A stretch of DNA of 53,768 nucleotides from Cyanobacteria bacterium UBA3803 (GCA_002369055.1 DFEL01000028.1:1-53768); one strand, 5' to 3'; shown: positions 36,411 through 53,768, numbered from the stretch's first letter. Notes: generated by a model not told the origin, from the letters alone. Numbers and translations: made by a program.

Positions 36411-36490
36411 TACAAAAGGGGCAAATGTATAATCAAAAGGCTTGATATTACTTCAATACAGAGTTAAATTGTGTATGACAATTAAATATC

Positions 36491-36520: not shown

Positions 36521-36521
36521 A

Positions 36522-36956: not shown

Positions 36957-36984
36957 GTCATATTAGGTCTAATTGGGTATAAAT

Positions 36985-38040
36985 ATGTTAGAAAATATCG
37001 ATATAAAAATAAATAATCAAATGCTTTCAATTATCTCTGAGATTGATGAATTCAAAGGTTCCTGGAAGTTATTAGGCAAGATGGCTCCGGAAAAATTAAG
37101 AGCATTAAAGAAAGTTGCAACAATAGAAAGTGTAGGTTCTTCAAATCGTATTGAGGGGAATAAACTTTCTGATAGGCAGGTCGAAGAATTATTATCTCGC
37201 ATAAAAAAGCAGTCTTTTGCGAATCGTGATGAAGAAGAAGTTGCCGGGTATGCAAAACTTGCTGATACTATTTTTGAAGATTGGGAAGTGATTCCATTAT
37301 CCGAAAATTATATAAAACAACTTCATAAAATCTTGCTTGAATATTCTTCAAAAGATGAAAAGCATAAAGGTGAATACAAAAAAATATCCAATGCAGTTGC
37401 CGCATATGATAGTGAAGGCAAAGAACTTGGTGTTGTTTTTGATACAGCTACTCCGTTTGAAACACCATTAAAAATGCAGGAACTTGTAGATTGGACAAAT
37501 AAAAATTTATCTGATAAATTTTATCATCCGTTAATTGTCATTGGAATTTTTGTGGTTAATTTTCTTGCAATTCACCCGTTTCAGGATGGAAACGGCAGAT
37601 TATCAAGAGCATTAACAAACCTTTTACTGCTAAAATCCGGTTACGTTTATGTTCCTTACAGTTCAACCGAATCAATAATTGAGGATAATAAAGAAGGATA
37701 CTATAGGGCACTAAGGCAAACTCAGACGACTTTGAATAAAGAACCTGATTATGAACCGTGGCTGATGTTTTTCCTAAAGACATTGCAAAAGCAAAAAATC
37801 AGACTTGAGTATAAAATAGAACACGCAAACACTTCCGTTAAATCCAATTTAGACCTACCGGAAATTTCAGCAAAAATCATGGAAGTTTTTGAAACAAAAG
37901 ACAGAGCAACAATTTCCGAATTGTCTGAATTAACAGGAACAAATATTAATACAATTAAAAAGCATTTATCAAGTCTGGTTGAGAATAATTACCTTACTAA
38001 ACATGGCAAAACTCGTGGTGCTTGGTATACTAAAAATTAA
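36985..38040 (+). CDS. Fic-family protein (AMPylase-type) with a C-terminal winged-helix domain
   Basis: Fic motif HPFQDGNGRLSR, with a C-terminal ..ISEL.ELTG.N.NTIKKHL..L.. wHTH. The track start 36973 is TTG; ATG 36985 is preferred. Confidence 0.85.
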   Translation: MLENIDIKINNQMLSIISEIDEFKGSWKLLGKMAPEKLRALKKVATIESVGSSNRIEGNKLSDRQVEELLSRIKKQSFANRDEEEVAGYAKLADTIFEDWEVIPLSENYIKQLHKILLEYSSKDEKHKGEYKKISNAVAAYDSEGKELGVVFDTATPFETPLKMQELVDWTNKNLSDKFYHPLIVIGIFVVNFLAIHPFQDGNGRLSRALTNLLLLKSGYVYVPYSSTESIIEDNKEGYYRALRQTQTTLNKEPDYEPWLMFFLKTLQKQKIRLEYKIEHANTSVKSNLDLPEISAKIMEVFETKDRATISELSELTGTNINTIKKHLSSLVENNYLTKHGKTRGAWYTKN

Positions 38041-38057
38041 AAATAGATGTTTTGTTC

Positions 38058-40007: not shown

Positions 40008-42004
40008 TCAAGACCTTTCTTAATATATTCTGGAATTCTAAGTTCTTCTACAAAATCACTCATCAATATGTCTAATGCCACAGCACCTTTTTGATTTTTT
40101 GCATATGATAAAAACAAATTTGCAAAAAATAGTTTATTTATTTTTAGTTTTCTATCACTATTTGTCTCAGTATCGTATTTATTTTTATATATTTCCATTA
40201 TTTTTTTAACTTTATCCAAAGTATTGGTTCTAACTATTTTATCAAGATTGTTATGCCAAAAGTCAATCGAAAGATTTTTTCTTAAATCCGTATTATAAAC
40301 AGCTTTAGGCAAAACTGAACACAAAAGTTTTTTACATATAGTATCTTTATTAATGCCCATGTCTTCATTCATAAAATTATCAATAAATAATTCACTTTCA
40401 AAAGTACAACCACCATTTTTTTGAGTGATAATATTAATATTAGCTGATGCCCTATAATATCGCCTTAAAATAGAAGGCATATCTTGATACTTTTTATAGT
40501 TATATAAATAATCAGTATCACAATCTCGTATACAAAGAATTTTGTTTTTAGTTTCTTTAAATAGATTCAAAAAAGGTCTAAAATTTATTCCGCCAACTTC
40601 GACAACTGAAATATGTTCATTAACAAGGTTAAATCCCTCTTTTTGAGCAAAAAATGGTAATAAAAGTTTTTCTGTTAAACCTTCAACTAAAATAATTTTT
40701 TCTGTAAATAACATGTCACTTCGTGTAACATCTAAAAATTTTGCAAGGTGCTTTTTATCATCGTTCAAGCATTTCTGTTGCTCATTATCACCAGATATAA
40801 ATTTCATTTTTAAATTTTCCGCATTAACATTGCAGTTAGCTCTTTCTCTATAATAATGAAGCGAAATAATATCATCAATATTTGAAGATGCAGAAATATT
40901 AGGAGAGTGTGTAGTTATAATAATTTGATTTTTGATTTTTTCATCTTGTAAATCTTCCAGATTTTGCAAATATTTAAAAAGTTGATATTGCATAGCAGGA
41001 TGCAAATGGGCTTCTGGTTCTTCTATAAGTAAAATATTATAGTCATCAGCCATTTTAAATTGCAAAATGTTATATATTTGTATTAAATTATTGTAACCAA
41101 GCCCATTGTTTTCTAATGGTAGATTGTAATTCATGTCTTTATCTATTAAATGAAACTGAAAGTGTTCTTCTAAAGGTGCATCATATTTAAAACTCGGTTC
41201 AAGTATATTATTTCCCTTACTAATACCAATACAATCTTGTCCTTTTTTAAATTTAGTTTTTATATCATTAATAATTGGTTCAAATTTATTATTAATAGTA
41301 TCAGTTAAATCTCTTTTTATCTCTAAAGCAGAATCTTCATCTTTTATTTTCTTTTTTATGAAAGTTTTTGTCTCTGGCAATAATTTATCTGTTGTTCTGT
41401 CTGCTGGAATAAAATCAATATTAAAAATAGTTTCTATATCGCTATGATTTAATATCGGTTCATTTGCATTATTATAAAAAGTCCATTCATATTTATCCAA
41501 AAATTCTTCAAGTATATTTTCATAATTTTTAAAATATTCTTTTGGCGGTAAGCTTGTTTCGAGCTTTGCGACTTGATTTTTATAGTCATCACAGTATTTG
41601 TTATTCAATTCAAAAGCAATTTTAAATTTTCCTGTAATTTTATATGAATTTTCATTTTCTCCCTTAAGCAAATTACCATCCTCTTCATACACAATAAAAT
41701 TCTTAAGCTTTATTAGAGAACTATCTATTGTCTCTGGGTTGAATGAATGTTCAATAACATAATAGAATTCTATTTTGGGTGGGTTTTCTTTGAATTCTGC
41801 CTGATGTTTATCAAACAAATTATTATAATTAAAGTCAGATATTTTTAATTTGGTAGGGCGACTGTTTAAAAATGCAATTACTTTTAAAAGATTTGTTTTA
41901 CCTGCGTTATTAGGACCAACAATAACATTTACTCCTTCTTTTAGGTAAATTGTTGTGTCATTATAATTTCTATAATTAATTATTCTGATTTGTGAAATTT
42001 TCAT
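39992..42004 (-). CDS. gajA: OLD-family ATP-dependent endonuclease (ABC-type ATPase plus TOPRIM), Gabija GajA-like
   Basis: 670 aa. Walker A GPNNAGKT, Walker B LLIEEPEAHLHP, and C-terminal TOPRIM ILVEGLTEK..VVEVGG..F..IRDCD. Confidence 0.78.
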   Translation of the reverse strand: MKISQIRIINYRNYNDTTIYLKEGVNVIVGPNNAGKTNLLKVIAFLNSRPTKLKISDFNYNNLFDKHQAEFKENPPKIEFYYVIEHSFNPETIDSSLIKLKNFIVYEEDGNLLKGENENSYKITGKFKIAFELNNKYCDDYKNQVAKLETSLPPKEYFKNYENILEEFLDKYEWTFYNNANEPILNHSDIETIFNIDFIPADRTTDKLLPETKTFIKKKIKDEDSALEIKRDLTDTINNKFEPIINDIKTKFKKGQDCIGISKGNNILEPSFKYDAPLEEHFQFHLIDKDMNYNLPLENNGLGYNNLIQIYNILQFKMADDYNILLIEEPEAHLHPAMQYQLFKYLQNLEDLQDEKIKNQIIITTHSPNISASSNIDDIISLHYYRERANCNVNAENLKMKFISGDNEQQKCLNDDKKHLAKFLDVTRSDMLFTEKIILVEGLTEKLLLPFFAQKEGFNLVNEHISVVEVGGINFRPFLNLFKETKNKILCIRDCDTDYLYNYKKYQDMPSILRRYYRASANINIITQKNGGCTFESELFIDNFMNEDMGINKDTICKKLLCSVLPKAVYNTDLRKNLSIDFWHNNLDKIVRTNTLDKVKKIMEIYKNKYDTETNSDRKLKINKLFFANLFLSYAKNQKGAVALDILMSDFVEELRIPEYIKKGLEWLKK

Positions 42005-42630
42005 TAGTATATTTATCCATATTCCTAAGTCGCTATTTTAATTATAACAATTATAAATTTAAGATGTTAATTTTTAATATTATATTTACAAATAATTAAA
42101 GCATAATCTTAGATTGCTTAAAATATAGCTCATATGAATATAAATGATTTCAGTTATCAGATTTAAAATCTTGACTGAAAACGGCAGATTTTAGAGTGTT
42201 TTTTAGTTATTTTTAATATATTTTAATTGAAAAATTTACTGCTATTCAAACGTTATAAACGCTTCCGGCCTACTTCCGAGTTGAAAAATTGCAATTTCAA
42301 ATGGGACTTATTTGTCCTAAATGTGTCATCGCTTTAATATAGAGTATATTTGAGTCTTAGCGATTTGTTCGGATTTATACCGGATTTTTCATTGACAGAA
42401 AGTGGACAAAAAGAGCAGTTTCGTTACATTTGAGTCAATTCGTAAAAAATCGCTAATACCCCAACGTGTCCGCTAACACAGGCTAAATAATTACAATTCA
42501 AATGTCCCAAATAAACCCCAGTTGAGTAAGTGCGCTTGTTCTGGATTTGGAAATTTGACATAAAAGAATGGACTTTTGTAACGTTTACTTGTTAGTTAAT
42601 TCTCAAAATATTCAATAAAAAGGATTGCAA

Positions 42631-42878
42631 ATATTCCGCAAAGACAAATACAAATTCTGACTCATGTGCAATTGGCACAGCTTTTTAAAATAACAAACAA
42701 AAAATATCCGTACCTTATTCCGATTATTCAAGAATTAATTATATTAAAACAACCTTTGAACGACTTTTTAAGAGGCAATGAACAAGAAAAGAAAGCCATA
42801 AAACGCAAAATCAGAAAAGACTTTTATAAAATCAAACAGGAACTAGGTTTAATAAATTATATGTTTGATGATTTGAGG
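42631..42878 (+). repeat. Direct repeat copy 2 (integrase-remnant core)
   Basis: See 36667..36914. Both copies end at ..TATGTTTGATGATTTGAGG and then diverge. Confidence 0.8.
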
Positions 42879-42986
42879 TTCTGTCAAAAATGTGCAAAAC
42901 ATGATGAAAAGTCGTGTCAAAAATGTGCAAAACATGATGAAAAGTCGTGTAAAAAATGTGCAACTTGTGATATAATAAACTTATAA
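42666..42986 (+). pseudogene. Second integrase-remnant ORF fused to a 33-bp tandem repeat
   Basis: GTG-initiated 106-aa ORF. Residues 1-73 are paralogous to the 36.7-kb remnant, and the tail is the repeat-encoded CQKCAKHDEKS x2. Unlikely to be a functional gene. Confidence 0.5.
42883..42964 (+). repeat. 33-bp tandem repeat, about 2.5 units
   Basis: GTCAAAAATGTGCAAAACATGATGAAAAGTCGT at 42883-42915 and 42916-42948 is identical. A third partial unit has one mismatch. Confidence 0.9.
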
Positions 42987-43001
42987 AAAGAGGATCAACA
43001 C

Positions 43002-44291
43002 ATGGAAAGATACGCTATAAAACAACTTATTGACTGGAAGAATAAAAAAAATCATAAGCCATTAATAATACAAGGAGCAAGACAAGTCGGTAAAACTTGG
43101 TTGATGCAAGAGTTTGGAAAAAAATATTATGAACAAGTTGCATATATCAACTTTGATGTCGATAAAAAAAGTAAAGAAATTTTTGACACAGACTATGATA
43201 CTAACCGTATTATAATGGATTTGGGATTAGCAACAAAGATTAAAATTAATCCTGAAAATACACTAATAATACTTGATGAAATTCAAGAATGTCCAAGAGC
43301 GTTAACGTCTTTAAAGTATTTTAGAGAAAATGCTCCGCAATATGATATTATTGTTGCCGGTAGCTTGTTAGGTGTTGCTTGTCATGAAGGAACGGGATTC
43401 CCTGTCGGTAAAGTTTCTTTTATGAACCTTTATCCGTTAAGTTTTGAAGAATTTTTATTAGCAATGGACGAATCAAGATTTGTTGAACTTTTAAATAAAA
43501 AAGATTATAAAACTATAAAACTGTTTAATAATAAATATGAAAAGCTTTTAAAACAATATTGTTATGTTGGCGGTATGCCGGAAGTTGTTAGTGATTTTGT
43601 AGAGAACAAAGATTTTATGAGTGTAAGAGAACTACAAAATGAGATTCTAGCTGCTTATGAAGAAGATTTTACAAAACATATTCCTGAAAATACAGTTGCA
43701 AAAATTCGTTTATTATGGAAATCTATTCCTGCACAATTAAGCAAAGAAAATAAGAAATTTATATATGGGGCTGTAAAAGAAGGTGCAAGAGCAAGAGATT
43801 TTGAAGTCGCCCTGTCTTGGTTAATAGATAGCGGTTTAATTTATAGAGTAAATAAAATAACAAAGCCTGACTTACCAATTATAGCTTATGAAGATTTTAG
43901 TGCTTTTAAATTGTTTGTATTAGATGTTGGTTTATTAGGAGCAATGACCGATTTAGAAGCAGAAACTATTATTGATGGAAATCGTATATTTGAAGAATTT
44001 AAAGGTGCTATAGCTGAACAATATGTCCTGCAGCAATTTAAGACTATAAAAGATTTACCGGTATTTTACTGGTCGAACGAAACAAGTCGAGCAGAAGTTG
44101 ATTTTGTTATTCAATTAAAATCAAATGTTGTACCTGTTGAAGTTAAAGCAGAAACAAATTTGCAAGCAAAAAGTTTAAAAGTTTATATGGAAAAATTTAA
44201 GCCGGAATTAGCCATAAGAACATCTTTGGCAGATTATAAAAAGGCCGATAATCTTGTGGATATACCATTGTATACTATAGAAAATGTTTAG
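43002..44291 (+). CDS. AAA-family ATPase of the AAA_14/DUF4143 type
   Basis: 429 aa. Walker A GARQVGKT, Walker B ILDEIQ and a C-terminal ..AEVDFV......VPVEVKA.. nuclease-fold-like DUF4143 pattern. Confidence 0.78.
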   Translation: MERYAIKQLIDWKNKKNHKPLIIQGARQVGKTWLMQEFGKKYYEQVAYINFDVDKKSKEIFDTDYDTNRIIMDLGLATKIKINPENTLIILDEIQECPRALTSLKYFRENAPQYDIIVAGSLLGVACHEGTGFPVGKVSFMNLYPLSFEEFLLAMDESRFVELLNKKDYKTIKLFNNKYEKLLKQYCYVGGMPEVVSDFVENKDFMSVRELQNEILAAYEEDFTKHIPENTVAKIRLLWKSIPAQLSKENKKFIYGAVKEGARARDFEVALSWLIDSGLIYRVNKITKPDLPIIAYEDFSAFKLFVLDVGLLGAMTDLEAETIIDGNRIFEEFKGAIAEQYVLQQFKTIKDLPVFYWSNETSRAEVDFVIQLKSNVVPVEVKAETNLQAKSLKVYMEKFKPELAIRTSLADYKKADNLVDIPLYTIENV

Positions 44292-44453
44292 TTTATATAA
44301 AATATGATTATTGGAGTACCATATGACAGTTCCCTTTTTAACAAAAGAAGATGTAATATGAATCTTAAAAGACGATAGCATAATAGAAGTAGGACCACAA
44401 TTTCAAGGCGGTCAAAAAGCTGTTATTCCAATAATTACAAACAATCATAAATT

Positions 44454-45467
44454 CTATGTCGTTATTGTGTATTGAGATAGCTTCTGCACTGCATCAAGTA
44501 TATTTTTTTTAGGCTTGTGGATATATCTTCTGGTTGTTCTTGGATCTTTATGATCCAAATATTCCTGTATAGTTGCTAAATCTATACCCATTTCGTTCAT
44601 TCGTGAGGCTGTTGTATGTCTTAATTCATGAAATGATATATGCTTAATTCCGCTTTTCTTTACTAATCTTATGAACGATGAATCTACATCTTTATATTTG
44701 TCGTGTGTTAATGGATTTGTAAATACATACTCATTTATACTATTATAAAATAATTCTAATTGTTCTTTTATATCAGGAGTTATAAGTAATTTTCTTGGTT
44801 TACCATTTTTAGTATTCAATGCAATCATATATCCTTGTTTCATATAAACATCTGACCACTTTAAATTTAAAATTTCACCCATTCTCATTCCTGACTGTAT
44901 GCTGATAATGATAAAGGCTTTCATCAACGGATTTGCAATATCTAATAACTTTTTTTCTTCTTCTTTTTCTAAAAATCTTTTTGTAGGATTTACTATCCTT
45001 AATGGTCTTAACCCGCTACAAGGACTTTCTTTTATCTTATGATTGCTTTTTGCAAGTGAAAACATCTTTTTTATATTATTCATCTCTCGGTTTATGCTTG
45101 AATTTTTAACACCGGCTTTCTTTCTTTGAGTTCGATATTTTTCTATGTCTGATACAATTATCTGTTTTAAAGGTTTATTCCCAACAATTTTATAAAAATT
45201 ATCAACTACAACTTTTGCCTCTTTTGGTGAAGCATATACATCATCAGCATATTGTTTATAATCTTCCATTATTTCAGATAGTGTATATACATGATAATTT
45301 TCAGCAGCTATATCATATCCGGATTTTCTTAATTCCGCTTTTGCTATTGTTTCGTAACCAATAACTTCATCTCGAGTAGCATCTTTAAATCTTCTATGGT
45401 AACGTACTCCTCTATACATAAATTCATACTGGTAATATCCGTTTTTTTTGTCTCTTGTTACTGTCAT
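44454..45467 (-). CDS. Tyrosine-type site-specific integrase (phage integrase family)
   Basis: Catalytic ..G.RMGEIL.LKW.D.. and HELRHTTASRM...G.DL..IQ.YLDH.D..TT.RYIH. Start ATG 45467 (MTVTRDKKNGYY, AGGAG 11 nt upstream) is preferred over the track start 45536, which overlaps the xis-like gene. Confidence 0.85.
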   Translation of the reverse strand: MTVTRDKKNGYYQYEFMYRGVRYHRRFKDATRDEVIGYETIAKAELRKSGYDIAAENYHVYTLSEIMEDYKQYADDVYASPKEAKVVVDNFYKIVGNKPLKQIIVSDIEKYRTQRKKAGVKNSSINREMNNIKKMFSLAKSNHKIKESPCSGLRPLRIVNPTKRFLEKEEEKKLLDIANPLMKAFIIISIQSGMRMGEILNLKWSDVYMKQGYMIALNTKNGKPRKLLITPDIKEQLELFYNSINEYVFTNPLTHDKYKDVDSSFIRLVKKSGIKHISFHELRHTTASRMNEMGIDLATIQEYLDHKDPRTTRRYIHKPKKNILDAVQKLSQYTITT

Positions 45468-45523
45468 AATAATATTTACTCCTAAAAACATATTAGCGTT
45501 CATCATGCTGAAACGCAAACTCA

Positions 45524-45703
45524 TTAATTCCCACAAAATACAAATTTTAACAATTCTTGTTTGTTGAAAAGCCAGTATCTACCATGTTTTCCACAGACAT
45601 TTGATGGATAATATCCTTGCTTTGCTTTTCTTTCAATAGTTCTCTTATCCGACTTTAAAAGTTCTGCTACTTCTCTTACATTTAAAATTTCAAAATCACT
45701 CAT
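45524..45703 (-). CDS. Excisionase-family / MerR-like HTH DNA-binding protein
   Basis: 59 aa, below the ORF-track cutoff: MSDFEILNVREVAELLKSDKRTIERKAKQGYYPSNVCGKHGRYWLFNKQELLKFVFCGN. This is the typical ..L...E.A..L.....T......G..P....G....F....L..W/F pattern, directly upstream of the integrase. Confidence 0.65.
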   Translation of the reverse strand: MSDFEILNVREVAELLKSDKRTIERKAKQGYYPSNVCGKHGRYWLFNKQELLKFVFCGN

Positions 45704-45822
45704 TTCCTTATCCTTTCTGTATTAAAACTAATTGTCTTTTACTTTTAGTAAATGTTTGCCTATTTCTATTACTTACAATATACCTGTTTTGAAAATAAAT
45801 TCTGTAACTTTATAATCGCTCG

Positions 45823-45852
45823 ACAAAAAAGTCCTTGTATAACAAGGACTTT
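45823..45852 (-). terminator. Rho-independent terminator after the 369-aa orphan gene
   Basis: Minus strand: AAAGTCCTTG ttata CAAGGACTTT followed by TTTTG. Confidence 0.65.
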
Positions 45853-45910
45853 AGACCTATAAATTAAAATTTTACGAGCGATTTATGAGCGATTAAAACT
45901 GTCAATAATT

Positions 45911-47020
45911 TTAGTTAGAAATTTCATCAAATATAAAAGAAAATTTATCTTCATTATAGACAATATTTCCAATACTTCGAGGTAATAACAAAAGTCTTAT
46001 TTCGGCTATATCACTTTTAGTTAGACTTTTATCAACACTTGCAAGTGTTTTTCTAATTCGGGTGTTAATTTTATTAATTTTGTCTGACATGTATGTTTTA
46101 AAGTATTTAATATCAACAATAGGGTTTGGAACAGATCCATACATTACATTGTAATGATTTGATAAATTATATTTATTTTTTCCTACTTTATATATCAACT
46201 CAATCCACTCTTTACACATATCCATTTGTTTATTGTTTAAATATATTGATAAATCACCATTAAAATCTTTTTTTATTTTAATTGTATAGTAGGTTTCAGC
46301 TTTTGTTTTTTCACCATTAAGTTCATTTGCATATTTATCACGTGCATAATATGTTCTGGCATATTTATTTAACTCCGACAATACTTCGCACATTGCAGAT
46401 GCAAAAAAGTAAGCTGAAAATCTTGTATCTAATTCAAAATAATTTTTTATATAAAAACTTACTACATAAAAAGCTAAACCCTCTGGTATAAATAGGATAT
46501 CATCAAAGAGACCCCCAAAAATATTTACATAAAAATCAATAAGCCTTGGGGAAATCTCAATAGATGCTGGGTAGTCTTTATCACCTAGTGAACTATACAT
46601 AAATAATAAAGGAATATCTAAATATTTTTCACATATGTCTTTTTCTTTGTTCTTAATATGTATACAAATTTCTTTTGCATCAAGGTCAAAAAACTTTTTA
46701 TCAACACACTTTATTACATATTTATTTTCTTTATTTTCTTTTAATTTATTTTCTAAATATTTTATTACATTCGAAGAAACTTCTTTCAGTTCCATTTTAG
46801 CTTCATCATCAGACGCATCCTTTAAAAAAAGTGAAACCTCTTTTTTAAATTTGTTTTTCAATATGGGATCATCCATTATCAAGGTAGAAGAAGAATTCAT
46901 TAATTCTTCTATCTTTTCTATCTTTTTATTTTCTTCCTCATCTTCAAATTCATCGTCCAAAAAGTCATTTATTGATTTGTCAATATTTTCTAATAATTCA
47001 TTGTATTCCATTATAAACAC
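45911..47020 (-). CDS. Hypothetical protein, no recognisable domain
   Basis: 369-aa ORF, very K/N/E/D/I/Y-rich with an acidic N-terminus. It has its own AT-rich upstream region and its own terminator. Confidence 0.55.
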   Translation of the reverse strand: MFIMEYNELLENIDKSINDFLDDEFEDEEENKKIEKIEELMNSSSTLIMDDPILKNKFKKEVSLFLKDASDDEAKMELKEVSSNVIKYLENKLKENKENKYVIKCVDKKFFDLDAKEICIHIKNKEKDICEKYLDIPLLFMYSSLGDKDYPASIEISPRLIDFYVNIFGGLFDDILFIPEGLAFYVVSFYIKNYFELDTRFSAYFFASAMCEVLSELNKYARTYYARDKYANELNGEKTKAETYYTIKIKKDFNGDLSIYLNNKQMDMCKEWIELIYKVGKNKYNLSNHYNVMYGSVPNPIVDIKYFKTYMSDKINKINTRIRKTLASVDKSLTKSDIAEIRLLLLPRSIGNIVYNEDKFSFIFDEISN

Positions 47021-47332
47021 CTTTTTTAATTATGTTACTATTTTTTATACAAATTTATTATTCATTATATTTTATTAAACATAATATTTATTCTGTATAT
47101 TACTATAAGTGAAGTATCTTATCAAGTTTATATAGTCTTTATATAGTGAATTTTGATTTTTTATTATTTTTGTTATAAGTTCATAATATTATAATTAGTA
47201 AATTCTTATGATAATTATCAAATAGACTGTTTTTTTAGGTACGATTTTTGTAAATTGAGGCTGGATACTAAAATGCCTCAAACACATATAAATATGGGTA
47301 ATCTGACACATATTAGATCGCCACGAATTAGT

Positions 47333-47363
47333 AAAAAATCCCTTAAAAATTAAGGGATTTTTA
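47333..47363. terminator. Terminator after the WG-repeat/184-aa operon
   Basis: AAAAAATCCCTTA aaaat TAAGGGATTTTT. Confidence 0.7.
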
Positions 47364-47379
47364 AAAAGCAATTGATTTT

Positions 47380-47934
47380 TTAATTTGAATTATTTAAGTA
47401 TTTTTCAATTATTTCTAATTGGAATTCTGCTCTGTCAAGATTTATTTCTTCAACTTTTTCTTCATCTGTTTCATCTATTCCATCTATATATGATTTTAGA
47501 ATATTATAGAATTCTTGCAATAAAGTTTTTTTATCAAGGATAATATCAAATTCTATTGTATAATCCGCTATTTTATAATCGTCAATATTATCATCGGAAT
47601 ACAAATTATAATCGTGTGCAAAAAGAAATCGTATTTCTTTTTCATTGATTGGATTTGCATAAAGTAGTGGATCGCTGCCTTCATTATCAAGAAACATTGC
47701 TATATCTTCTTTTGAAGTAGTTAATTCGGAGAAAAAACGAATAACATGCGTTATAGCCGTCATTACAGAACTATATTTAATTTTTACTTCTCTGTTGTTT
47801 ACCATTAATGTTATATAAACCCAGCCGTGAGTTTCTTCAAAATTTAAACATTTTAATTGCTGTTTTTGGGGTTCAGATTTGTTAATTAATTCATAAATTT
47901 CTTTTTCAGAACACCATTTATCTACTAAAATCAT
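47380..47934 (-). CDS. Hypothetical acidic protein, no recognisable domain
   Basis: 184-aa ORF, 13 nt downstream of the WG-repeat gene on the same strand. Confidence 0.55.
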   Translation of the reverse strand: MILVDKWCSEKEIYELINKSEPQKQQLKCLNFEETHGWVYITLMVNNREVKIKYSSVMTAITHVIRFFSELTTSKEDIAMFLDNEGSDPLLYANPINEKEIRFLFAHDYNLYSDDNIDDYKIADYTIEFDIILDKKTLLQEFYNILKSYIDGIDETDEEKVEEINLDRAEFQLEIIEKYLNNSN

Positions 47935-47947
47935 TTTTCACCTCTTT

Positions 47948-49525
47948 TTATTTTAATTCATACTCATAAACATCTACACCGTGATTACTATTGCAGATTA
48001 TTTTTTTGTTTTCTAATATATTTATATTATCATAATCAGGTTTTATAATTACTGTTCCGTTAGACATCATAAGACCTTGTTGGTTACTGTCTTTTTTTAC
48101 CTCAAAATAATAAAAGTTATCATTGCATCTGCTTTGTTCAAAATATTCATATTTTGCGGGAATTAAAATTTTACCGTCAAAGTTTTTTAATCCTCTTTTG
48201 TCATTATCTGAATAAATATATGTTTTTGTTTCAAAATTAACAGCACTATTGAAAACGGAAACTTTTTCGTCAAATTCTTTACTTTCAAGAATATTACCTT
48301 TTTCATCAATAATATTGTATATTGTAGAGTTTTCGCCTTCTTTGACAGCAACAACGGGATTCCACCAAGGATAAATACTTGTATAATCAGATTTGAAAAC
48401 ATCTTTACCCTTGTGGTCTATTATTTTTTCAACCTTATGTCCCAAATCTTTATCGAAAAATTCTACCAGAATATTACCGTCATCAAGGAATGTTACATCA
48501 TCAAATTGTGGCTCAAAAAGAATTTTATTTTCTTTTAAATCATAAATACCTATCGGAACATCATCCCAAGTTGCTTTTTCTCTGTAAGTCATCAAACCGT
48601 CAAAGTAATCATAACTATAATCTTCAAAAATCGGCTCGGTTATAAAATTTCCATTTCTGTCTAAAATAGCCCATTTACCATTTTCCCAACCACCTGTATG
48701 CACTTGATAATAGTCCTCAATGATATTATTATAATCATCAATAAACCATCTTATTTCATCATATTTGCAAGGGATTATTTCATTGCCGTTTTTGTCAATA
48801 ACTCCCCATAATTCTTCTTCTGTCCAGTAATGCTCTTGATTGGATTCATTATCCGATTTTTTATGTTTTTCCCACTTACCTTTTGCAACAACGGCTCTGT
48901 CGTTGATAAAATTAAATGCATAAATATATTGAGGTTTGATAACTTCTCGTCCGGACTTATCAATATAGCCCCAATTTCCTGCAATATCATTATAATCAGA
49001 GTGATATGACAATTTATCCTGATATAATATGTCAATGGTTGAAACTCTTGCAAGTCCGTCATAAAAAGGTTTAACCTCTTTATAAATATTTTCGAGATGT
49101 ATTTCATTACCTTTTTTATCGACATATAGCCAGTTATTTCCGTCATGTACGCCAGCATAACCGTTTTTGAAATATTTTGTTTTTTTGTATTTTAACGGTA
49201 TGGCAATTTCATAATCTTTATTTAAAAATCCGTATCCTTGTTCATTTATACCGACTTTCCACATTTCATCGCTGTACATATATTCACTGACATAATCAAA
49301 TTCCAAATCGGTTAATCGTTTTCCGTCATAAGAAACGAATGTAGATTTTCCACCGCAGTTGTGATACTTGCCTGATAAAAGAACCATTAAAACTCCGGCA
49401 TCTTTTTCTTCGTGCAGACTTCTTACATTCCAAGTCCATAATTTAGTAAGTTTAAGTTCAGAATCTTCATAAACTACTTCATTGCATAATGTTGGTTCTT
49501 TTGCGGGAGTGTTTTCTGTAGTCAT
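47948..49525 (-). CDS. WG-containing-repeat (KWG-type) protein, cytoplasmic
   Basis: Repeats such as GNWGYIDKSGREVIKPQY, ELWGVIDKNGNEIIPCKYDEI and GKWAILDRNGNFITEPIFEDY. No signal peptide. ATG 49525 (GAGGT 8 nt upstream) is preferred to the track start 49585. Confidence 0.7.
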   Translation of the reverse strand: MTTENTPAKEPTLCNEVVYEDSELKLTKLWTWNVRSLHEEKDAGVLMVLLSGKYHNCGGKSTFVSYDGKRLTDLEFDYVSEYMYSDEMWKVGINEQGYGFLNKDYEIAIPLKYKKTKYFKNGYAGVHDGNNWLYVDKKGNEIHLENIYKEVKPFYDGLARVSTIDILYQDKLSYHSDYNDIAGNWGYIDKSGREVIKPQYIYAFNFINDRAVVAKGKWEKHKKSDNESNQEHYWTEEELWGVIDKNGNEIIPCKYDEIRWFIDDYNNIIEDYYQVHTGGWENGKWAILDRNGNFITEPIFEDYSYDYFDGLMTYREKATWDDVPIGIYDLKENKILFEPQFDDVTFLDDGNILVEFFDKDLGHKVEKIIDHKGKDVFKSDYTSIYPWWNPVVAVKEGENSTIYNIIDEKGNILESKEFDEKVSVFNSAVNFETKTYIYSDNDKRGLKNFDGKILIPAKYEYFEQSRCNDNFYYFEVKKDSNQQGLMMSNGTVIIKPDYDNINILENKKIICNSNHGVDVYEYELK

Positions 49526-49630
49526 AAATTTTACCTCATTTATTATAACTTTATTATAAAACCTATGTATGACAGATAAGGACATGGAAAATTTTTGAAT
49601 TTTTTAATTAAAATATAGGGAGTATAAAAT

Positions 49631-50194
49631 ATGAAAAATTTGGTAGAACCAATCAAAAACAGAGAACAGGTAGAGGCAGTAGAAAGATATTTAGCAGAAC
49701 AAAGTTTAAGAAATCAGCTTATTTGGGTGTTTGGATGCAATACAGGGTTACGAATAAGTGATATATTAGGTCTGAATGTGGAAGATGTTGAGGGTAAAGA
49801 TTTTGTAGAAATAAGAGAGAAGAAAACGAGTAAGTACAAGCGATTTCCACTAAACAGTAAACTGAAAAAGTTGATAAAAAGATACCTTATAGAACGTAAA
49901 AAAACTTATTCAGTTACAGATGATAATCCGTTGTTTGTAGGTAAAAAGCATCATAGACTTGACAGGAGTCAGGTTTACAGAATTATTAATAAAGCGTGTA
50001 AAGAGTGTGGCATTACTGTAAATGTTGGTTGCCACAGTATGAGAAAGAATTTTGGGTTGTTTTTCTTTAGAAAATATAATAACATTGCCTTGTTACAAAA
50101 GATATTTCAGCATTCGGCTCCTGCTATTACATTGCGTTATATTGGTATCTCCCAAGAAGAAATAGATGAATCATACCTAAACTTTGAATTGTAG
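49631..50194 (+). CDS. Catalytic-domain-only tyrosine recombinase (187 aa)
   Basis: NTGLRISDILGL (Arg I), HSMRKNF (His-x-x-Arg), a second His in ..QHS.. and LRYIG (Tyr). There is no N-terminal core-binding domain. Confidence 0.8.
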   Translation: MKNLVEPIKNREQVEAVERYLAEQSLRNQLIWVFGCNTGLRISDILGLNVEDVEGKDFVEIREKKTSKYKRFPLNSKLKKLIKRYLIERKKTYSVTDDNPLFVGKKHHRLDRSQVYRIINKACKECGITVNVGCHSMRKNFGLFFFRKYNNIALLQKIFQHSAPAITLRYIGISQEEIDESYLNFEL

Positions 50195-50223
50195 CCGTTA
50201 TACAACAAATTAAATACATCAGG

Positions 50224-50374
50224 ATATTTATTTTGGTGCATAAACTCTTATAGTTCCATATTATCATAAAATTATTTTGAAATTTTGTTTAATAAATTGA
50301 TTGTGAAGAAAATTTTTACAAATACAATTATTCAACTCTGATACCATTCATTGTTTATGCACCAAAATAAATAT
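50224..50374. mobile_element. Putative invertible DNA segment (107 bp flanked by perfect 22-bp inverted repeats)
   Basis: ATATTTATTTTGGTGCATAAAC (50224-45) is the exact reverse complement of GTTTATGCACCAAAATAAATAT (50353-74). It lies 30 nt after the recombinase stop and 39 nt before the hsdM ATG. The segment contains TTGTGA-16-TACAAT pointing at hsdM and TGATAATAT pointing the other way. Confidence 0.55.
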
Positions 50375-50413
50375 TTGGTTGTGTAAATTCTCCAAAATTT
50401 AGGAGAATCAAGA

Positions 50414-51976
50414 ATGGCGAAAACAAAAAAAACAAAGGAAAAAAGTTTAGAGAGTATATTATTTGATTGTAGAAATACATTAAGGGGTAAGGTTTCTTCT
50501 CTTACAAACAGAGATGCCGTAATGGGTTTAGTGTTTTTAAAATTTGCAGGGGATAAATTTGAAAAAAGAAGATCTGAAATAAAGGAACAATATGGTGATA
50601 TACCTACATTTTTAGAAAAGCCTTCTTTCTATTTATCCGAAAATGTTTTCTATTTAAGGGAAAATTGTCGTTGGTCGGAAATAGTAAAAAATGCAGGAGC
50701 AAAAGATATTGCGAACAAAATAGATCAGGCAATGGCAGATATAGAAACAGATAATTCCCCTTTAAAAGGTGCTTTGTTACAAAAATTTTATGCAAATTTA
50801 GGTCTTGATCCAAAAGTTATTAAATCATTAATTGATGACATTAATCAAATCTCGGAAGAAAAGTTTAAGGAAAAAGATTTAATTGGAACTGTATATGAGT
50901 ATTTTATGCGAAACTTTGCATATGATTCAAAACAGGAAAAAGGTGAATTCTATACTCCTAAATGTATTGTTGATTTAATTGCCGAACTTATTGAGCCATT
51001 TCAAGGAAGAATTTATGATCCTTGTTGTGGTACGGGTGGTATGTTTGTGCAATCTGTAAAATTTGTTGAAGCACATAACGGTAATAAAATGGACATAGCT
51101 GTTTATGGGCAAGAAGAAAATCCGGATACCTACAGATTAGCAAAGCAAAACTTGGCAATTAGAGGGATTTCTTGTGATCTGGGGGATAGAAATGCTTCGT
51201 CATTTTTAGATGACCGACATGAGGACTTAAAAGTTGATTATATCATGGCAAATCCACCATTTAATCTTAAAAAATGGAGAGATCCAAATGATTTATTAAA
51301 TGACCCCCGTTGGTCAGGTTATGGTATTCCTCCTGTAAGTAATGCAAATTATGCATGGATTTTGCACATGTTATCAAAATTAGATGTTACAGACGGTATT
51401 GCTGGATTTTTACTTGCAAATGGTGCATTATCCAGTCCGGAAGAATTGGCTATAAGAACCCAACTTATTGAAAATGATAAAGTTGAAGCAATAATAGTTT
51501 TACCACGAGAAATGTTTTATTTGACTGATATTAGTGTTACGTTATGGATTATAAACAACAATAAAAAAGCAAGTTCATTAAACGGAAGACAAGTAAGAAA
51601 TCGTGAAAATGAAATTTTATTTGTTGATTTAAGAACGTGGAACAAATTGCATGATGATAATAAAGCAGTTGTGTTTAATGATGAAATAATTCAAAAAGTT
51701 AAAAAAATTTATAACGACTGGCAAAGTCTAAATTGCCCAGAAAAATATGAACAACCTGAATTATACAGAAGTGTAAAAAAATCTGAAATAATAGAAAGGG
51801 GTTATACTCTTGTTCCTTCAAAATATATTGAATTTGTTGATAAAGATTTAGACATCAATTATGAAGAAGAAATGTCAAGAATACAAAAAGAAATGCAAGA
51901 AATTTTGAATAAAGAACAAAAATCACAAGATCTGCTAAAATCTGCTTTTGAGGGTATTGGTTATGCAATTAAATAA
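50414..51976 (+). CDS. hsdM: Type I restriction-modification system methyltransferase subunit
   Basis: 520 aa. HsdM N-terminal domain, FYTP, the AdoMet site DPCCGTGGM and the catalytic NPPF. Confidence 0.92.
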   Translation: MAKTKKTKEKSLESILFDCRNTLRGKVSSLTNRDAVMGLVFLKFAGDKFEKRRSEIKEQYGDIPTFLEKPSFYLSENVFYLRENCRWSEIVKNAGAKDIANKIDQAMADIETDNSPLKGALLQKFYANLGLDPKVIKSLIDDINQISEEKFKEKDLIGTVYEYFMRNFAYDSKQEKGEFYTPKCIVDLIAELIEPFQGRIYDPCCGTGGMFVQSVKFVEAHNGNKMDIAVYGQEENPDTYRLAKQNLAIRGISCDLGDRNASSFLDDRHEDLKVDYIMANPPFNLKKWRDPNDLLNDPRWSGYGIPPVSNANYAWILHMLSKLDVTDGIAGFLLANGALSSPEELAIRTQLIENDKVEAIIVLPREMFYLTDISVTLWIINNNKKASSLNGRQVRNRENEILFVDLRTWNKLHDDNKAVVFNDEIIQKVKKIYNDWQSLNCPEKYEQPELYRSVKKSEIIERGYTLVPSKYIEFVDKDLDINYEEEMSRIQKEMQEILNKEQKSQDLLKSAFEGIGYAIK

Positions 51977-53090
51977 GGTAAAACTGGGGACTCTTATAAG
52001 TTTAGTTACTGATAGTAATATTAATTCAGAATATGATGAAAATTCAGTTCGAGGAATCTCAATAGATAAGAAATTTATACCAACAAAAGCAGATTTATCA
52101 GGTGTCGATTTAAAAAAATACACATTGGTAAAACCAAAACAGTTTGCTTATGTATCTGTAACATCTCGAAATGGCGAAAAAATATCATTAGCATACAATT
52201 TTTCAGATGAAGCTTACTTGGTATCATCAACTTATGTGGTATTTAATGGTATAAGTAATAAATTGTTGCCTGAATATTTATATATATTCTTTAACAGAAC
52301 TTCATTTGATAGATATTCTCGATTTAATTCTTGGGGTTCTGCGAGAGAGACTTTTTCTTGGGAAGATATGTGTGATGTGGAAATTGAACTTCCCGATATA
52401 GAAATTCAACAAAAATATGTTGATATTTATATGGGATTAAAACAAAACATTAATATGTTAGAAACTTCGAAAAATCGCATTAAATTCGTATGTGACGCAT
52501 ATATAGAAAATTTAAGAAAAACCACTGATATAAAAGAAATTGGACAATATATTTTCAAAGGTAAAAAAAATACAAATGAAAACATTTCGGATGTTCTGGG
52601 AATTGGTCAAGTAGGATTTATAAAACCACAAAAAATACCAAATGAATCTTTGAAAAATTATAAGGTAATGACTAAAGGTGCTATTTGTTACGCCCCACCA
52701 TTATACAATATCAAGGCTGATGCACTACATTATTATCCTTTTGATTCGGATACTGTATGCTCACCAATATATGAAGTTTTTTATTGCAATACAAATTACT
52801 TGTTGCCTGAATATTTGATTTTATGGCTAAAAAGAGAAGATTTTAAAAGATATGCGGAATTTTACGCTCTAGGAGTTAGAAATACCTTCGATTATTCACT
52901 AATGGAAGAATTCAAAATTCCAATACCATCTATTGAAATTCAAAAAGATATAGTAAAAGTTTACAATGCTTATACTATTAGAAACAATATATTAAATATT
53001 GCAATAAACTTACAAAAAAACATATGTCCTATTTTAATAAAAGGTTCTGTGGAAGAAGCAAAAAGCATGGGAAACAAGTATAGTGACTAA
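51963..53090 (+). CDS. hsdS: Type I restriction-modification system specificity subunit
   Basis: Two target-recognition domains separated by conserved helices (..LP.IEIQ.. appears twice). ATG 51963 (MQLNKVKLG..) overlaps the hsdM stop; the track start 51948 is also possible. Confidence 0.85.
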   Translation: MQLNKVKLGTLISLVTDSNINSEYDENSVRGISIDKKFIPTKADLSGVDLKKYTLVKPKQFAYVSVTSRNGEKISLAYNFSDEAYLVSSTYVVFNGISNKLLPEYLYIFFNRTSFDRYSRFNSWGSARETFSWEDMCDVEIELPDIEIQQKYVDIYMGLKQNINMLETSKNRIKFVCDAYIENLRKTTDIKEIGQYIFKGKKNTNENISDVLGIGQVGFIKPQKIPNESLKNYKVMTKGAICYAPPLYNIKADALHYYPFDSDTVCSPIYEVFYCNTNYLLPEYLILWLKREDFKRYAEFYALGVRNTFDYSLMEEFKIPIPSIEIQKDIVKVYNAYTIRNNILNIAINLQKNICPILIKGSVEEAKSMGNKYSD

Positions 53091-53768
53091 AAAATTTACA
53101 GAAGAATCATTGGAAAAATCAATAATTGAACAACTTGAAAAAAAAGAGGGCTATACCTATGTGAATGGTTATAGTATTCATAGAAAAGAAACAGATGTTC
53201 TTATGGAGCAAGATTTAATTTCATATTTGCAACAAAGATATGCAAGTGAAAATCTTACTCAAAATGAAATTACAACTATTATAAATAATATTAAACTTAT
53301 TTCCGCAACTCCATTATATACAGGTAATAAAGAAGTCTTTAAATATTTGAATTCAGGATTTAATTTATCAAGAGATGATGCCTCTCTACAAAATCTGCAT
53401 ATTGAATATATTGATTTTAATAATATTGAAAATAATACATATAAAATAGTTAATCAATATCAAGTAAAGGATGTAGGTGTAATTCCGAGACGTCCTGATT
53501 TACTTATATTTATAAATGGCATTCCTGTTTGTATTTGTGAGTTTAAAACAGCAATTGAAGAAGACACAACGATATTTGATGCTTGGAAACAGATTCATAA
53601 TCGATATAAAAGAGAAATCCCAAATCTTCTAAAATATTGTATGCTATCAATGATTACCGATGGTGTAACATCAAAATTAGGAACGATTTTTACAAAATAT
53701 GAGTATTACTATGCTTGGAAAAAGATTAGTGATTACGAGTCAGAAAAAAATGGTATACCAGCTCTTAT
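53083..53768 (+). CDS. hsdR: Type I restriction enzyme endonuclease subunit, N-terminal part (3' end outside window)
   Basis: Absent from the ORF track. GTG 53083 overlaps the hsdS stop, and the frame is open to the window end. ..ESLEKSIIEQL...GY.Y..G....R......L..DL..YL...Y and RPDLLIFINGIPV.I.EFK match the HsdR N-terminal nuclease domain. Confidence 0.8.
   Translation, partial: MTKKFTEESLEKSIIEQLEKKEGYTYVNGYSIHRKETDVLMEQDLISYLQQRYASENLTQNEITTIINNIKLISATPLYTGNKEVFKYLNSGFNLSRDDASLQNLHIEYIDFNNIENNTYKIVNQYQVKDVGVIPRRPDLLIFINGIPVCICEFKTAIEEDTTIFDAWKQIHNRYKREIPNLLKYCMLSMITDGVTSKLGTIFTKYEYYYAWKKISDYESEKNGIPAL

What the first reader, a model, noticed from the sequence alone, without database searches (positions are those of the whole stretch)
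49631..50413. Putative invertible promoter switch between a minimal tyrosine recombinase and a type I R-M operon
Seen in sequence: a perfect 22-bp inverted repeat (50224-50245 and 50353-50374) brackets 107 bp. It sits 30 nt after the stop of a 187-aa catalytic-domain-only tyrosine recombinase and 39 nt before the hsdM start codon. The bracketed segment holds a reasonable sigma70 promoter facing hsdM (TTGTGA, 16 nt, TACAAT at 50301-50328). It also holds an extended -10-like TGATAATAT on the opposite strand. Established knowledge: recombinase plus short IR-flanked promoter segments (fimS-type switches, Bacteroidales invertons) cause ON/OFF phase variation. Phase-variable type I systems usually work instead by shuffling hsdS target-recognition domains, and only one hsdS with no silent copies is visible here. 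Inference: the whole hsdMSR operon may be switched by promoter inversion, which would be an unusual way to phase-vary a type I system.
Basis: partly seen in the sequence, partly recalled or inferred. Interest (0 to 1): 0.72.

Follow-up and report, generated by a model that had tools for sequence, protein, structure and literature searches.

The report
Invertible promoter switch gating restriction system
A small recombinase gene and a 107-base flippable DNA segment lie in front of a complete type I restriction-modification operon in a likely gut Melainabacteria (Gastranaerophilales) genome; relatives show that such segments do flip and carry one conserved promoter, which in this window appears to point away from the operon (OFF).

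Summary
Perfect 22-nt inverted repeats (50224-50245 and 50353-50374) bracket 107 nt between a 187-aa tyrosine recombinase gene and hsdM-hsdS-hsdR. None is expected by chance.

The inverton reading is supported by comparison. The recombinase belongs to a large family, mostly in Gastranaerophilales genomes. Family members are almost always followed by similar inverted sites and then a co-directional operon. These operons include type IIG and MmeI-like restriction systems, IetA-like ATPases, a PLD nuclease and glycosyltransferases.

The bracketed segment was found in both orientations in four sets of loci. One is the locus of a recombinase 86% identical to this one. There, one contig needs both states in a single sample, and two other assemblies break exactly at the repeat.

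The conserved element is the extended -10 TGATAATAT (50258-50266, minus strand). It faces the operon in ON relatives but faces the recombinase gene here.

The window locus has the same apparent OFF orientation in six assemblies, so its own flipping is not shown. There are no spare hsdS copies.

This is a new member of a known kind (fimS-like promoter inverton) with an unusual cargo and lineage.

The parts
49631..50194 (+). 187-aa tyrosine recombinase with catalytic domain only; the putative invertase, transcribed towards the switch
   Evidence: PF00589 E 4e-24. Aligns with XerA 4a8e at the R, K-loop, H-x-x-R, H and Y positions; I matched these to R41, K64-70, H135, R138, H161 and Y170 from motif positions. 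Hundreds of 187-aa homologues, mostly in Gastranaerophilales MAGs.
50214..50220 (+). Outer half-site-like motif ATACATC of the left recombination site. It is an imperfect inverted copy of GGTGCAT, 14 nt away.
   Evidence: Pattern AT[AG]CA[CT]C-N10-16-GGTG.. occurs once in the window, at 50214. The same two-half-site layout is seen in relatives.
50224..50245 (+). Left inverted repeat (IRL), ATATTTATTTTGGTGCATAAAC: central region plus inner half-site
50246..50352 (.). 107-nt invertible segment
   Evidence: Homologous to the segments of L060 and L064 only as reverse complement: global score 22-25 against 0-11 forward, shuffle maximum 8-10. No significant hairpin, unlike relatives.
50258..50266 (-). 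Conserved extended -10 promoter TGATAATAT. It currently fires towards the 3' end of the recombinase gene (OFF for hsdMSR). After inversion it would lie at about 50332-50340 on the + strand, roughly 75 nt upstream of the hsdM ATG.
   Evidence: TGnTAnnAT 8-20 nt from an arm half-site is present in 32 of 51 distinct family intergenic regions, against 5.2 +/- 2.2 in shuffles. Aligned in A1 and in the 25-locus alignment.
50301..50328 (+). It is not conserved and is possibly a weak or basal promoter.
   Evidence: 9 of 12, at chance level. The -35 is not conserved in A1. The TACAAT-like motif of relatives lies 6 nt away, inside a hairpin loop.
50353..50374 (+). Right inverted repeat (IRR), GTTTATGCACCAAAATAAATAT
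50377..50385 (+). Outer half-site-like motif GGTTGTGTA of the right recombination site
   Evidence: Read from the sequence. The equivalent GGTGTAT / GGTTGTA / GGGTGAA follows the right arm in L060, L002 and L064.
50401..50405 (+). AGGAG ribosome-binding site of hsdM. No promoter-like sequence lies between IRR and the ATG.
50414..51976 (+). hsdM (520 aa)
   Evidence: HsdM_N + N6_Mtase; PADLOC MTase_I 1.8e-117
51963..53090 (+). hsdS (375 aa from the ATG; the ORF opens at TTG 51948), the only copy
   Evidence: Methylase_S. tblastn finds no other hsdS in the window or in L079.
53083..53768 (+). hsdR, 5' part only. The full gene is 1053 aa in L079 and is followed by a convergent UvrD/PDDEXK gene.
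   Evidence: HSDR_N; gene calls of L079

Best explanation
This is a fimS-type promoter inverton that gates the whole type I restriction-modification operon. The 187-aa tyrosine recombinase encoded just upstream recombines two inverted core sites of about 32 bp. Each site consists of the perfect 22-bp repeat (central region plus inner half-site GGTGCAT) and a degenerate outer half-site. Recombination flips the 107-bp segment.

The segment carries one conserved outward-facing extended -10 promoter (TGATAATAT). In the orientation captured here it fires leftwards, through IRL and antisense into the 3' end of the recombinase gene, so hsdMSR has no dedicated promoter (OFF). After inversion the promoter lies about 75 nt upstream of the hsdM start codon and transcribes IRR, the AGGAG site and hsdM-hsdS-hsdR (ON).

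Shown: the repeat; the intact recombinase; the homology of the module to a large family; inversion of the homologous segment in relatives; and the conservation, position and polarity of the -10.

Inferred: that this particular copy still flips; that the -10 is active; that the present state is OFF; and that antisense transcription of the recombinase gene in the OFF state biases the switch, by analogy with orientational control of fimE (my own knowledge).
For: (1) The perfect 22-nt inverted repeat is not expected by chance.

(2) The recombinase is intact and aligns with XerA at all catalytic motifs.

(3) In 54 genome loci with homologues (48-86% identity), the recombinase is followed by a 140-400-nt gap with related inverted sites and then a co-directional operon of varied type.

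(4) The site-bounded segment is inverted between orthologous loci while the flanks stay collinear: L008 against L013, L016 and L023 (176 nt, 96-98% on the minus strand); L046 against L047 and L048 (189 nt, 96.8%); L032 against L005 and L040 (about 165 nt, 70%).

(5) Nearest relatives. For the 86%-identical recombinase P0003, L064 and L067 carry opposite orientations (nhmmer + and -, E about 1e-34). L067 reads left flank - arm - flipped segment - arm - reverse complement of the left flank, a path that needs both states in one sample. Contigs L001/L065 and L066 stop exactly where the two states diverge (...GGTTGTA). For the 88%-identical P0002, L063 stops at ...TATTTATTTTG, where the two arms of L060 diverge.

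(6) The extended -10 next to an arm and pointing outward occurs in 32 of 51 distinct family intergenic regions, against 5.2 +/- 2.2 in shuffles. It faces the operon in L060-62, L064, L002, L014, L031, L032 and L035, and by my reading of the sequences in L008 and L046. It faces the recombinase gene in about 27 loci.

(7) The window's segment is homologous to L060 and L064 only as reverse complement, which places its -10 in the OFF polarity.

(8) There are no spare hsdS copies, no Rfam RNA and no MITE-like spread.
Against: The window's own locus was found in six assemblies from several samples (the window, L055/L079, L056, L058, L059, L080), always in the same orientation and never broken at the repeat. 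The flipped junction had no hit in the JGI metagenome collection.

No reads could be examined, so minority orientations are invisible. Promoter activity is inferred from sequence only. A 9-of-12 sigma-70-like site (50301-50328) and a weak TGATACCAT (50339-50347) do face hsdM in the present orientation. The segment also lacks the terminator hairpin of relatives. 'OFF' may therefore be 'low' rather than silent.
Confidence: 0.72

Rival explanations
1. One reading: the switch is real, but the captured orientation is ON. hsdMSR would be driven by the TTGTGA-16-TACAAT promoter (50301-50328) or the weak TGATACCAT (50339-50347) inside the segment. The element might alternatively be a two-promoter high/low switch.
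For: Both motifs exist and face hsdM. The segment has no terminator, so transcription towards hsdM is not blocked. All six assemblies share this orientation, as might be expected if an active restriction system is the favoured state. A TACAAT-like motif recurs in L060 and L064.
Against: The 9-of-12 match is at chance level in this AT-rich DNA. Its -35 is not conserved, and the conserved TACAAT-like motif of relatives is offset by 6 nt and lies in a hairpin loop. The family-wide conserved promoter is the other one. In relatives whose promoter faces the cargo, the segment is the reverse complement of the window's. Most family loci (about 27 against 9-11) are assembled in the same recombinase-facing polarity, so a majority OFF state is the norm.
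Confidence: 0.15
2. A locked or fossil switch: the module descends from an inverton but no longer flips in this lineage, leaving hsdMSR permanently silent or expressed only by read-through from the recombinase promoter.
For: One orientation in six assemblies, and no contig breaks at the repeat, unlike the relatives. The segment is shorter (107 nt against 109-111 in the nearest relatives and about 130-150 in others) and has lost the hairpin.
Against: The arms are 22/22 identical, whereas relatives known to flip have imperfect arms. The recombinase ORF is intact with all catalytic motifs. hsdM, hsdS and hsdR are intact ORFs. Assemblies report only the majority state.
Confidence: 0.09
3. The recombinase and its sites mainly serve mobility or cassette exchange. 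They would be an integrase with att-like sites that moves or swaps defence cargo, and inversion would be a side reaction.
For: The same recombinase-plus-site 'head' precedes unrelated cargo. In L085 and L086 the homology (86% over 884 nt) ends shortly after the right-hand site and different genes follow. The loci lie in defence islands.
Against: The two sites are in inverted orientation at every locus, which gives inversion rather than excision. Inversion with unchanged flanks is what is actually observed. A promoter is conserved inside the segment with fixed polarity relative to the arm. No copies of the unit exist elsewhere.
Confidence: 0.03
4. A chance palindrome, transcription terminator or MITE-like repeat with no switching role.
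For: AT-rich DNA has many imperfect repeats.
Against: 0 of 100 shuffles give even one match to the arm. The 107-nt loop is far too long for a terminator, and no terminator was predicted. The arm 20-mer occurs as unpaired single hits in 11 JGI contigs, and the only two with any other similarity to this locus lie next to homologous recombinases.
Confidence: 0.01

Closest known systems
E. coli fimS switch with FimB/FimE (type 1 fimbriae)
   Same: A small tyrosine recombinase of about 190-200 aa is encoded immediately upstream and transcribed towards a short invertible segment bounded by inverted repeats. The segment holds the only promoter of the downstream operon. In the OFF state that promoter points back at the recombinase gene. 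(The fim gene order and orientational control are from my own knowledge.)
   Different: The recombinase is not a FimB/FimE family member: NCBIfam invertase models score 42-49 bits against cut-offs of about 221. There is one recombinase instead of two. The arms are 22 bp rather than 9 bp, and the segment is 107 bp rather than 314 bp. The cargo is a restriction-modification operon, and the lineage is Melainabacteria.
Promoter invertons of gut Bacteroidales and other bacteria (PhaseFinder / DeepInverton surveys; capsule, fimbriae, resistance genes)
   Same: Short intergenic promoter segments flanked by inverted repeats, several per genome, in host-associated bacteria, often next to tyrosine invertases (PMC11892184, PMC11602134; for the counts from the surveys).
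   Different: The searched papers do not mention Melainabacteria promoter invertons or promoter invertons in front of complete restriction-modification operons. Here each locus carries its own dedicated recombinase rather than depending on a global invertase.
Type I 'epigenetic invertons' / hsdS shufflons (S. pneumoniae ivr/cod locus with PsrA/CreX, B. fragilis, M. pulmonis hsd)
   Same: A tyrosine recombinase encoded next to a type I system, with phase variation of restriction-modification by site-specific inversion (PMC7672463, PMC9881135).
   Different: Those systems invert coding parts of multiple hsdS genes and change specificity. Here there is a single hsdS, the repeats are intergenic, and the predicted effect is ON/OFF switching of all three genes.
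ON/OFF phase-variable restriction-modification through simple-sequence repeats (phasevarions)
   Same: The predicted outcome is the same: the whole methyltransferase or restriction activity switches ON and OFF in a subpopulation (PMC11868660).
   Different: That mechanism is slipped-strand mispairing in coding repeats, not recombinase-mediated promoter inversion.
Clostridioides difficile RecV-dependent switches (cwpV, flgB, cmrRST, pdcB)
   Same: A tyrosine recombinase flips short regulatory segments upstream of operons, at several loci per genome (PMC11868660 for pdcB/pdcC; the rest is my own knowledge).
   Different: In C. difficile one unlinked recombinase serves many switches, and some act through terminators in the leader rather than through a promoter. 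Here the recombinase is linked to each switch and a promoter lies inside the segment.

Membership tests
Promoter inverton (fimS-type ON/OFF switch) | Pair of inverted repeats bracketing a short intergenic segment | tested here: met
   22-nt perfect arms with 107 nt between them, wholly intergenic
Promoter inverton (fimS-type ON/OFF switch) | Site-specific recombinase able to act on the repeats (usually adjacent) | tested here: met
   Intact tyrosine recombinase ending 29 nt upstream. The linkage of recombinase and repeats is conserved in the family. Catalysis itself was not tested.
Promoter inverton (fimS-type ON/OFF switch) | Promoter inside the segment that reads out through one arm | tested here: met
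   Sequence-level only: a conserved extended -10, 13-16 nt from the arm, in 32 of 51 family regions against 5.2 in shuffles. Activity was not measured.
Promoter inverton (fimS-type ON/OFF switch) | Both orientations exist in natural populations | tested here: inconclusive
   Met for relatives: L064/L067, L008/L013, L046/L047, L032/L005, plus contig breaks at the arm. Not seen for the window locus itself: six assemblies show one orientation and the flipped junction was absent from JGI contigs. Reads were not available.
Promoter inverton (fimS-type ON/OFF switch) | Orientation changes expression of the downstream operon | not testable with these tools
   Needs RNA-seq, 5' RACE or reporters
FimB/FimE-type DNA invertases (NCBIfam NF007370 / NF007371) | Score above the curated family cut-off | tested here: not met
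   41.7 and 48.6 bits against cut-offs of 221 and 222. The best NCBIfam hit is the C-terminal half of XerA, at 88 bits against a cut-off of 220.
Tyrosine recombinase superfamily | PF00589 catalytic domain with the R-K-H-R-H/W-Y residues | tested here: met
   PF00589 at 85.6 bits. Alignment to XerA 4a8e covers the R, K-loop, H-x-x-R, H and Y motifs; motif positions give R41, K64-70, H135, R138, H161 and Y170.
Type I hsdS shufflon / epigenetic inverton | Two or more hsdS genes or half-genes with inverted repeats inside hsdS coding sequence | tested here: not met
   A single hsdS. tblastn finds no other copy in 53.8 kb or in the 10 kb on either side in L079. hsdR is followed by a convergent helicase gene.
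Type I restriction-modification system | HsdM, HsdS and HsdR genes together | tested here: met
   HsdM_N + N6_Mtase, Methylase_S and HSDR_N. The full HsdR is 1053 aa with ResIII/helicase domains in L079.
MITE-like repeat | Many copies at unrelated loci without a recombinase, and target-site duplication | tested here: not met
   One copy in the window. The JGI scan gave 11 unpaired 20-mer hits, none sharing the inner segment, and two of them beside homologous recombinases.

The most novel reading that the evidence does not exclude
Gut Gastranaerophilales carry a lineage-wide, portable module: a mini tyrosine recombinase, a promoter inverton of about 110-150 bp and a conserved leader. The module gates entire defence systems (type I, type IIG and MmeI-like restriction-modification, IetA-like ATPase operons, a PLD nuclease) and glycan operons. 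There are several copies per genome, and most sit OFF in the population consensus. This would amount to a phase-variable, bet-hedged immune repertoire.

In the OFF state the flipped promoter transcribes antisense into the recombinase gene. This would give built-in orientational control that stabilises OFF. Whole-operon switching of a type I system would then mean periodic loss and re-establishment of genome methylation.
Probability: 0.45. Interest if true: 0.72.

Novelty: new member of a known kind. Interest (0 to 1): 0.55.

Why it matters
Known type I phase variation works either by shuffling hsdS or by repeat slippage. Here the predicted control is an ON/OFF flip of the only promoter for hsdM, hsdS and hsdR together. 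A cell lineage would then lose both methylation and restriction, and would later have to re-establish them without cutting its own DNA.

The comparative data widen the point. An uncultured gut lineage appears to place many different defence systems and surface-glycan operons behind the same kind of private switch, and mostly keeps them OFF. This bears on how defence costs are managed and on phage-host dynamics in the gut. It also bears on annotation: a genome-encoded defence system need not be an expressed one.

The prediction is directly testable with existing metagenomic reads.

Tried and rejected
- **hsdM, hsdS and hsdR near homologous recombinases.** tblastn against the 54 genome loci found none. 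The recombinase family is therefore not tied to type I systems.
- **Flipped junction of the window's switch.** An exact 40-mer search of the JGI metagenome contigs gave 0 hits. The collection seems not to hold this strain at all: the arm 20-mer gave only unpaired hits.
- **Other assemblies of the same locus.** Exact-protein look-ups for the recombinase and HsdM found five more assemblies, all in the same orientation. The 375-aa HsdS look-up failed because the window differs by one residue (G against V) from the deposited copies.
- **MITE, terminator and known-RNA readings.** Rejected.
- **hsdS shuffling.** Rejected.
It is at chance level and not conserved.
- **A terminator hairpin inside the window's segment.** Relatives have one, but the window does not (z -0.3).
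- **First nhmmer profile.** It included the window sequence, so its call for the window is circular. It was replaced by a pairwise forward-against-reverse alignment test, blastn and the motif test.
- **Literature.** Jiang et al. 2019 (PMC6543533) could not be read. Searches found no report of promoter invertons on whole restriction-modification operons or in Melainabacteria. This is absence in the searched library, not proof of absence.

Full report
**1. Observation**

The sequence shows a perfect 22-nt inverted repeat: ATATTTATTTTGGTGCATAAAC at 50224-50245 and its reverse complement at 50353-50374, with 107 nt between them. The arm occurs nowhere else in the window even with three mismatches allowed. 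None of 100 dinucleotide shuffles gave a match.

The upstream ORF 49631-50194 encodes 187 aa that match only the catalytic domain of tyrosine recombinases (PF00589, E 4e-24). Its alignment with the solved XerA structure 4a8e covers the Arg, Lys-loop, His-x-x-Arg, His and Tyr motifs. Motif positions place these at R41, K64-70, H135, R138, H161 and Y170.

Downstream lie hsdM (50414-51976), a single hsdS (51963-53090) and hsdR (from 53083, running off the window). In a longer assembly of the same locus, hsdR is 1053 aa and is followed by a convergent UvrD/PDDEXK gene. tblastn finds no second hsdS in the window or in the 10 kb on either side in L079.

**2. What the relatives show**

The recombinase has hundreds of close homologues of the same length. 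Fifty-four loci were recovered from species-representative genomes, most of them labelled Gastranaerophilales or Melainabacteria. None carries hsdMSR.

In nearly all of them the recombinase gene is followed by a gap of 140-400 nt and then a co-directional operon. The operons vary widely:
- MmeI-like and Eco57I/type IIG restriction-modification enzymes;
- a 701-aa type IIG enzyme followed by a gene with an HsdS-type specificity domain (Methylase_S);
- IetA-like AAA ATPases, with or without a radical-SAM protein;
- a PLD nuclease with a methyltransferase;
- a VWA protein;
- GT2 glycosyltransferases, UDP-galactopyranose mutase and an AlgX-like acetyltransferase.

Several MAGs hold two or three such modules.

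The gaps contain inverted sites built on the same motifs as the window's arms: half-sites ATRCAYC / GGTGYAT around an A/T-rich centre such as TATCTAT or TATTTAT. In the window, each perfect arm is extended on its outer side by a degenerate half-site, ATACATC at 50214-50220 and GGTTGTGTA at 50377-50385. This gives two sites of about 32 bp in inverted orientation.

**3. Direct evidence that these segments invert**

All-against-all blastn of the regions downstream of the recombinases found cases where the flanks align on the plus strand but the site-bounded segment aligns on the minus strand:
- L008 against L013, L016 and L023: 176 nt at 96-98% identity;
- L046 against L047 and L048: 189 nt at 96.8%;
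- L032 against L005 and L040: about 165 nt at 70%.

The window's two nearest relatives are the most telling.

For recombinase P0003 (86% identical, MmeI-like cargo), contig L064 and contig L067 come from different samples and carry opposite orientations. L067 reads left flank - arm - flipped segment - arm - reverse complement of the left flank. The first junction exists only in one state and the second only in the other. The contig is therefore most simply explained by both states being present in that sample. Contigs L001/L065 and L066 end at ...GGATATTTATTTGGTTGTA, the exact base where L064 and L067 diverge.

For recombinase P0002 (88% identical, type IIG cargo), contig L063 ends at ...TATTTATTTTG, where the two arms of L060 diverge. 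A 17-22-nt repeat is shorter than the assembly k-mers, so breaks at these points suggest mixed orientation.

**4. Which way the promoter points**

The units of L060, L064 and L002 align with the window's unit only when the window is reverse-complemented. In global alignment of the inner segments, the reverse complement scores 22 and 25 against L060 and L064. The forward orientation scores 11 and 0, and the shuffle maxima are 8 and 10. L002 is too diverged to call.

The conserved block is TTTTRTGRTAnAAT, an extended -10, followed about 14 nt later by the arm half-site. Across the family, TGnTAnnAT lying 8-20 nt from a half-site and pointing out through that arm is present in 32 of 51 distinct intergenic regions. 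Shuffles give 5.2 +/- 2.2, with a maximum of 14. It also aligns in a 25-locus alignment.

The promoter lies next to the right arm and faces the cargo in L060-62, L064, L002, L014, L031, L032 and L035. By my reading of the sequences the same holds for L008 and L046, which are the 'flipped' members of the pairs in section 3. It lies next to the left arm and faces the recombinase gene in about 27 loci, including the partners L013, L016, L023, L047 and L048, and L067.

In the window the element is TGATAATAT at 50258-50266 on the minus strand, next to the left arm. By homology the window shows the OFF state. After inversion the -10 would lie at about 50332-50340 on the plus strand, roughly 75 nt before the hsdM ATG, with the right arm and the AGGAG site (50401-50405) in the leader.

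Its -35 is not conserved, and the TACAAT-like motif of relatives is offset and lies in a hairpin loop. I cannot exclude that it, or a weak TGATACCAT at 50339-50347, gives basal expression.

**5. Differences from the relatives**

Relatives carry a stable hairpin inside the segment. In L009 it folds at -34.6 kcal/mol (z -6.0). In L064 and L067 the z-scores are -2.7 and -2.2, and in the OFF orientation the hairpin is followed by a U-run. It would insulate the cargo from read-through out of the recombinase gene. The window's segment has no such hairpin (z -0.3).

OFF may therefore be leaky here. That could matter for keeping the genome methylated, but this is inference.

**6. The window's own locus**

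The same locus (99.9-100% identical) occurs in five further assemblies from several samples: L055/L079, L056, L058, L059 and L080. All have the window's orientation and none breaks at the repeat. The flipped junction was not found in the JGI contigs, which seem not to contain this strain.

Flipping of this copy is thus not shown. Assemblies report only the majority state. The perfect arms and the intact recombinase and cargo genes argue against decay.

**7. Rivals**

- A locked switch is possible.
- A mobility or cassette-exchange role is suggested by identical heads on different cargo (L085 and L086). It does not fit the inverted sites or the inversions actually observed.
- Chance, terminator, MITE and known-RNA readings are excluded.

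**8. Comparison with known systems**

In how it works, the closest match is E. coli fimS with fimE. Both have a small recombinase gene transcribed towards a short invertible promoter segment in front of the regulated operon, and in both the OFF-state promoter points back at the recombinase gene (my own knowledge of fim).

In membership it differs. The recombinase fails the curated FimB/FimE models (42-49 bits against about 221) and is simply an unnamed branch of PF00589. The locus is also not an hsdS shufflon or 'epigenetic inverton' (PMC7672463, PMC9881135), because there is one hsdS and the repeats are intergenic.

The papers I could search describe promoter invertons mainly for surface structures and resistance genes. 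They describe restriction-modification phase variation through hsdS inversion or repeat slippage. I found no report of a promoter inverton in front of a complete type I operon, nor of promoter invertons in Melainabacteria. The key survey by Jiang et al. 2019 could not be read.

**9. Verdict**

The finding is real and the inverton idea is right in kind. The locus is one member of a sizeable and apparently undescribed family of private switches on defence and glycan operons in gut Gastranaerophilales.

The mechanism is of a known kind; the cargo, the lineage and the family-wide pattern are the new elements. Interest 0.55.

Noticed in passing
window 34832-49585: The switch and hsdMSR lie at the end of what looks like a defence island next to tRNA-Val (34832-34907). 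The island holds a Gabija-like pair: an OLD-type ATPase/TOPRIM at 39992-42004 and a UvrD helicase at 38058-40007, both on the minus strand. It also holds an AAA_14/DUF4143 ATPase (43002-44291), a full-length integrase (44454-45536) with an HTH_17 excisionase-like gene (45524-45703), and a WG-repeat protein (47948-49585). The rest of the window is chromosomal (DnaE, GroEL, FliF, Der).
   Followed up: partly
L085:3001-4020 and L086:3001-4020 (IMG/VR contigs from one sample): Two contigs share the recombinase and switch 'head' (86% over 884 nt), but the homology ends shortly after the right-hand site and different genes follow. This suggests cargo exchange at or near the switch.
   Followed up: partly
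window 50398-50422; L060, L002 and L064 at their cargo start codons: The ribosome-binding site and first codons are alike (AGGAGArTyAAkrATGGyrAA) in front of unrelated cargo genes: HsdM, a type IIG enzyme and MmeI-like enzymes. The conserved module may therefore extend to the start codon.
   Followed up: no
L041:6566-6920 and L042:6585-6918: These loci have three copies of a 15-nt repeat (two direct, one inverted) and a second small recombinase gene directly downstream. They may be a nested or two-segment switch in front of a galactofuranose/glycan operon.
   Followed up: no
L004, L009, L021, L075 and others (intergenic region after the recombinase gene): In the clade about 70% identical to the window's recombinase, a third internal half-site (TTTATGCACC) lies about 30 nt upstream of the extended -10, and another lies close to the recombinase stop codon. 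These are possible accessory recombinase-binding sites. They are degenerate in the window.
   Followed up: partly
L009:6665-6715; L064:3130-3175: Relatives carry a strong terminator-like hairpin inside the invertible segment (z down to -6). The window's 107-nt segment lacks it.
   Followed up: yes
family-wide: About three quarters of the assembled family loci have the promoter facing the recombinase gene (OFF). Several short contigs end at or within the switch.
   Followed up: partly
window 52972-52999 and 53399-53426: An imperfect 28-nt inverted repeat (86%) spans the end of hsdS and the start of hsdR. In this AT-rich DNA it is probably chance.
   Followed up: no
window 52381-52412 and 52915-52946: A direct repeat (72%) lies inside hsdS. 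It probably reflects the two conserved helical regions that follow each target-recognition domain, a normal HsdS feature, not a recombination substrate.
   Followed up: no
window 52245 region (hsdS codon 95): The window's HsdS differs from the deposited assemblies by one residue (G against V). The window therefore comes from a further, independent assembly or strain.
   Followed up: yes
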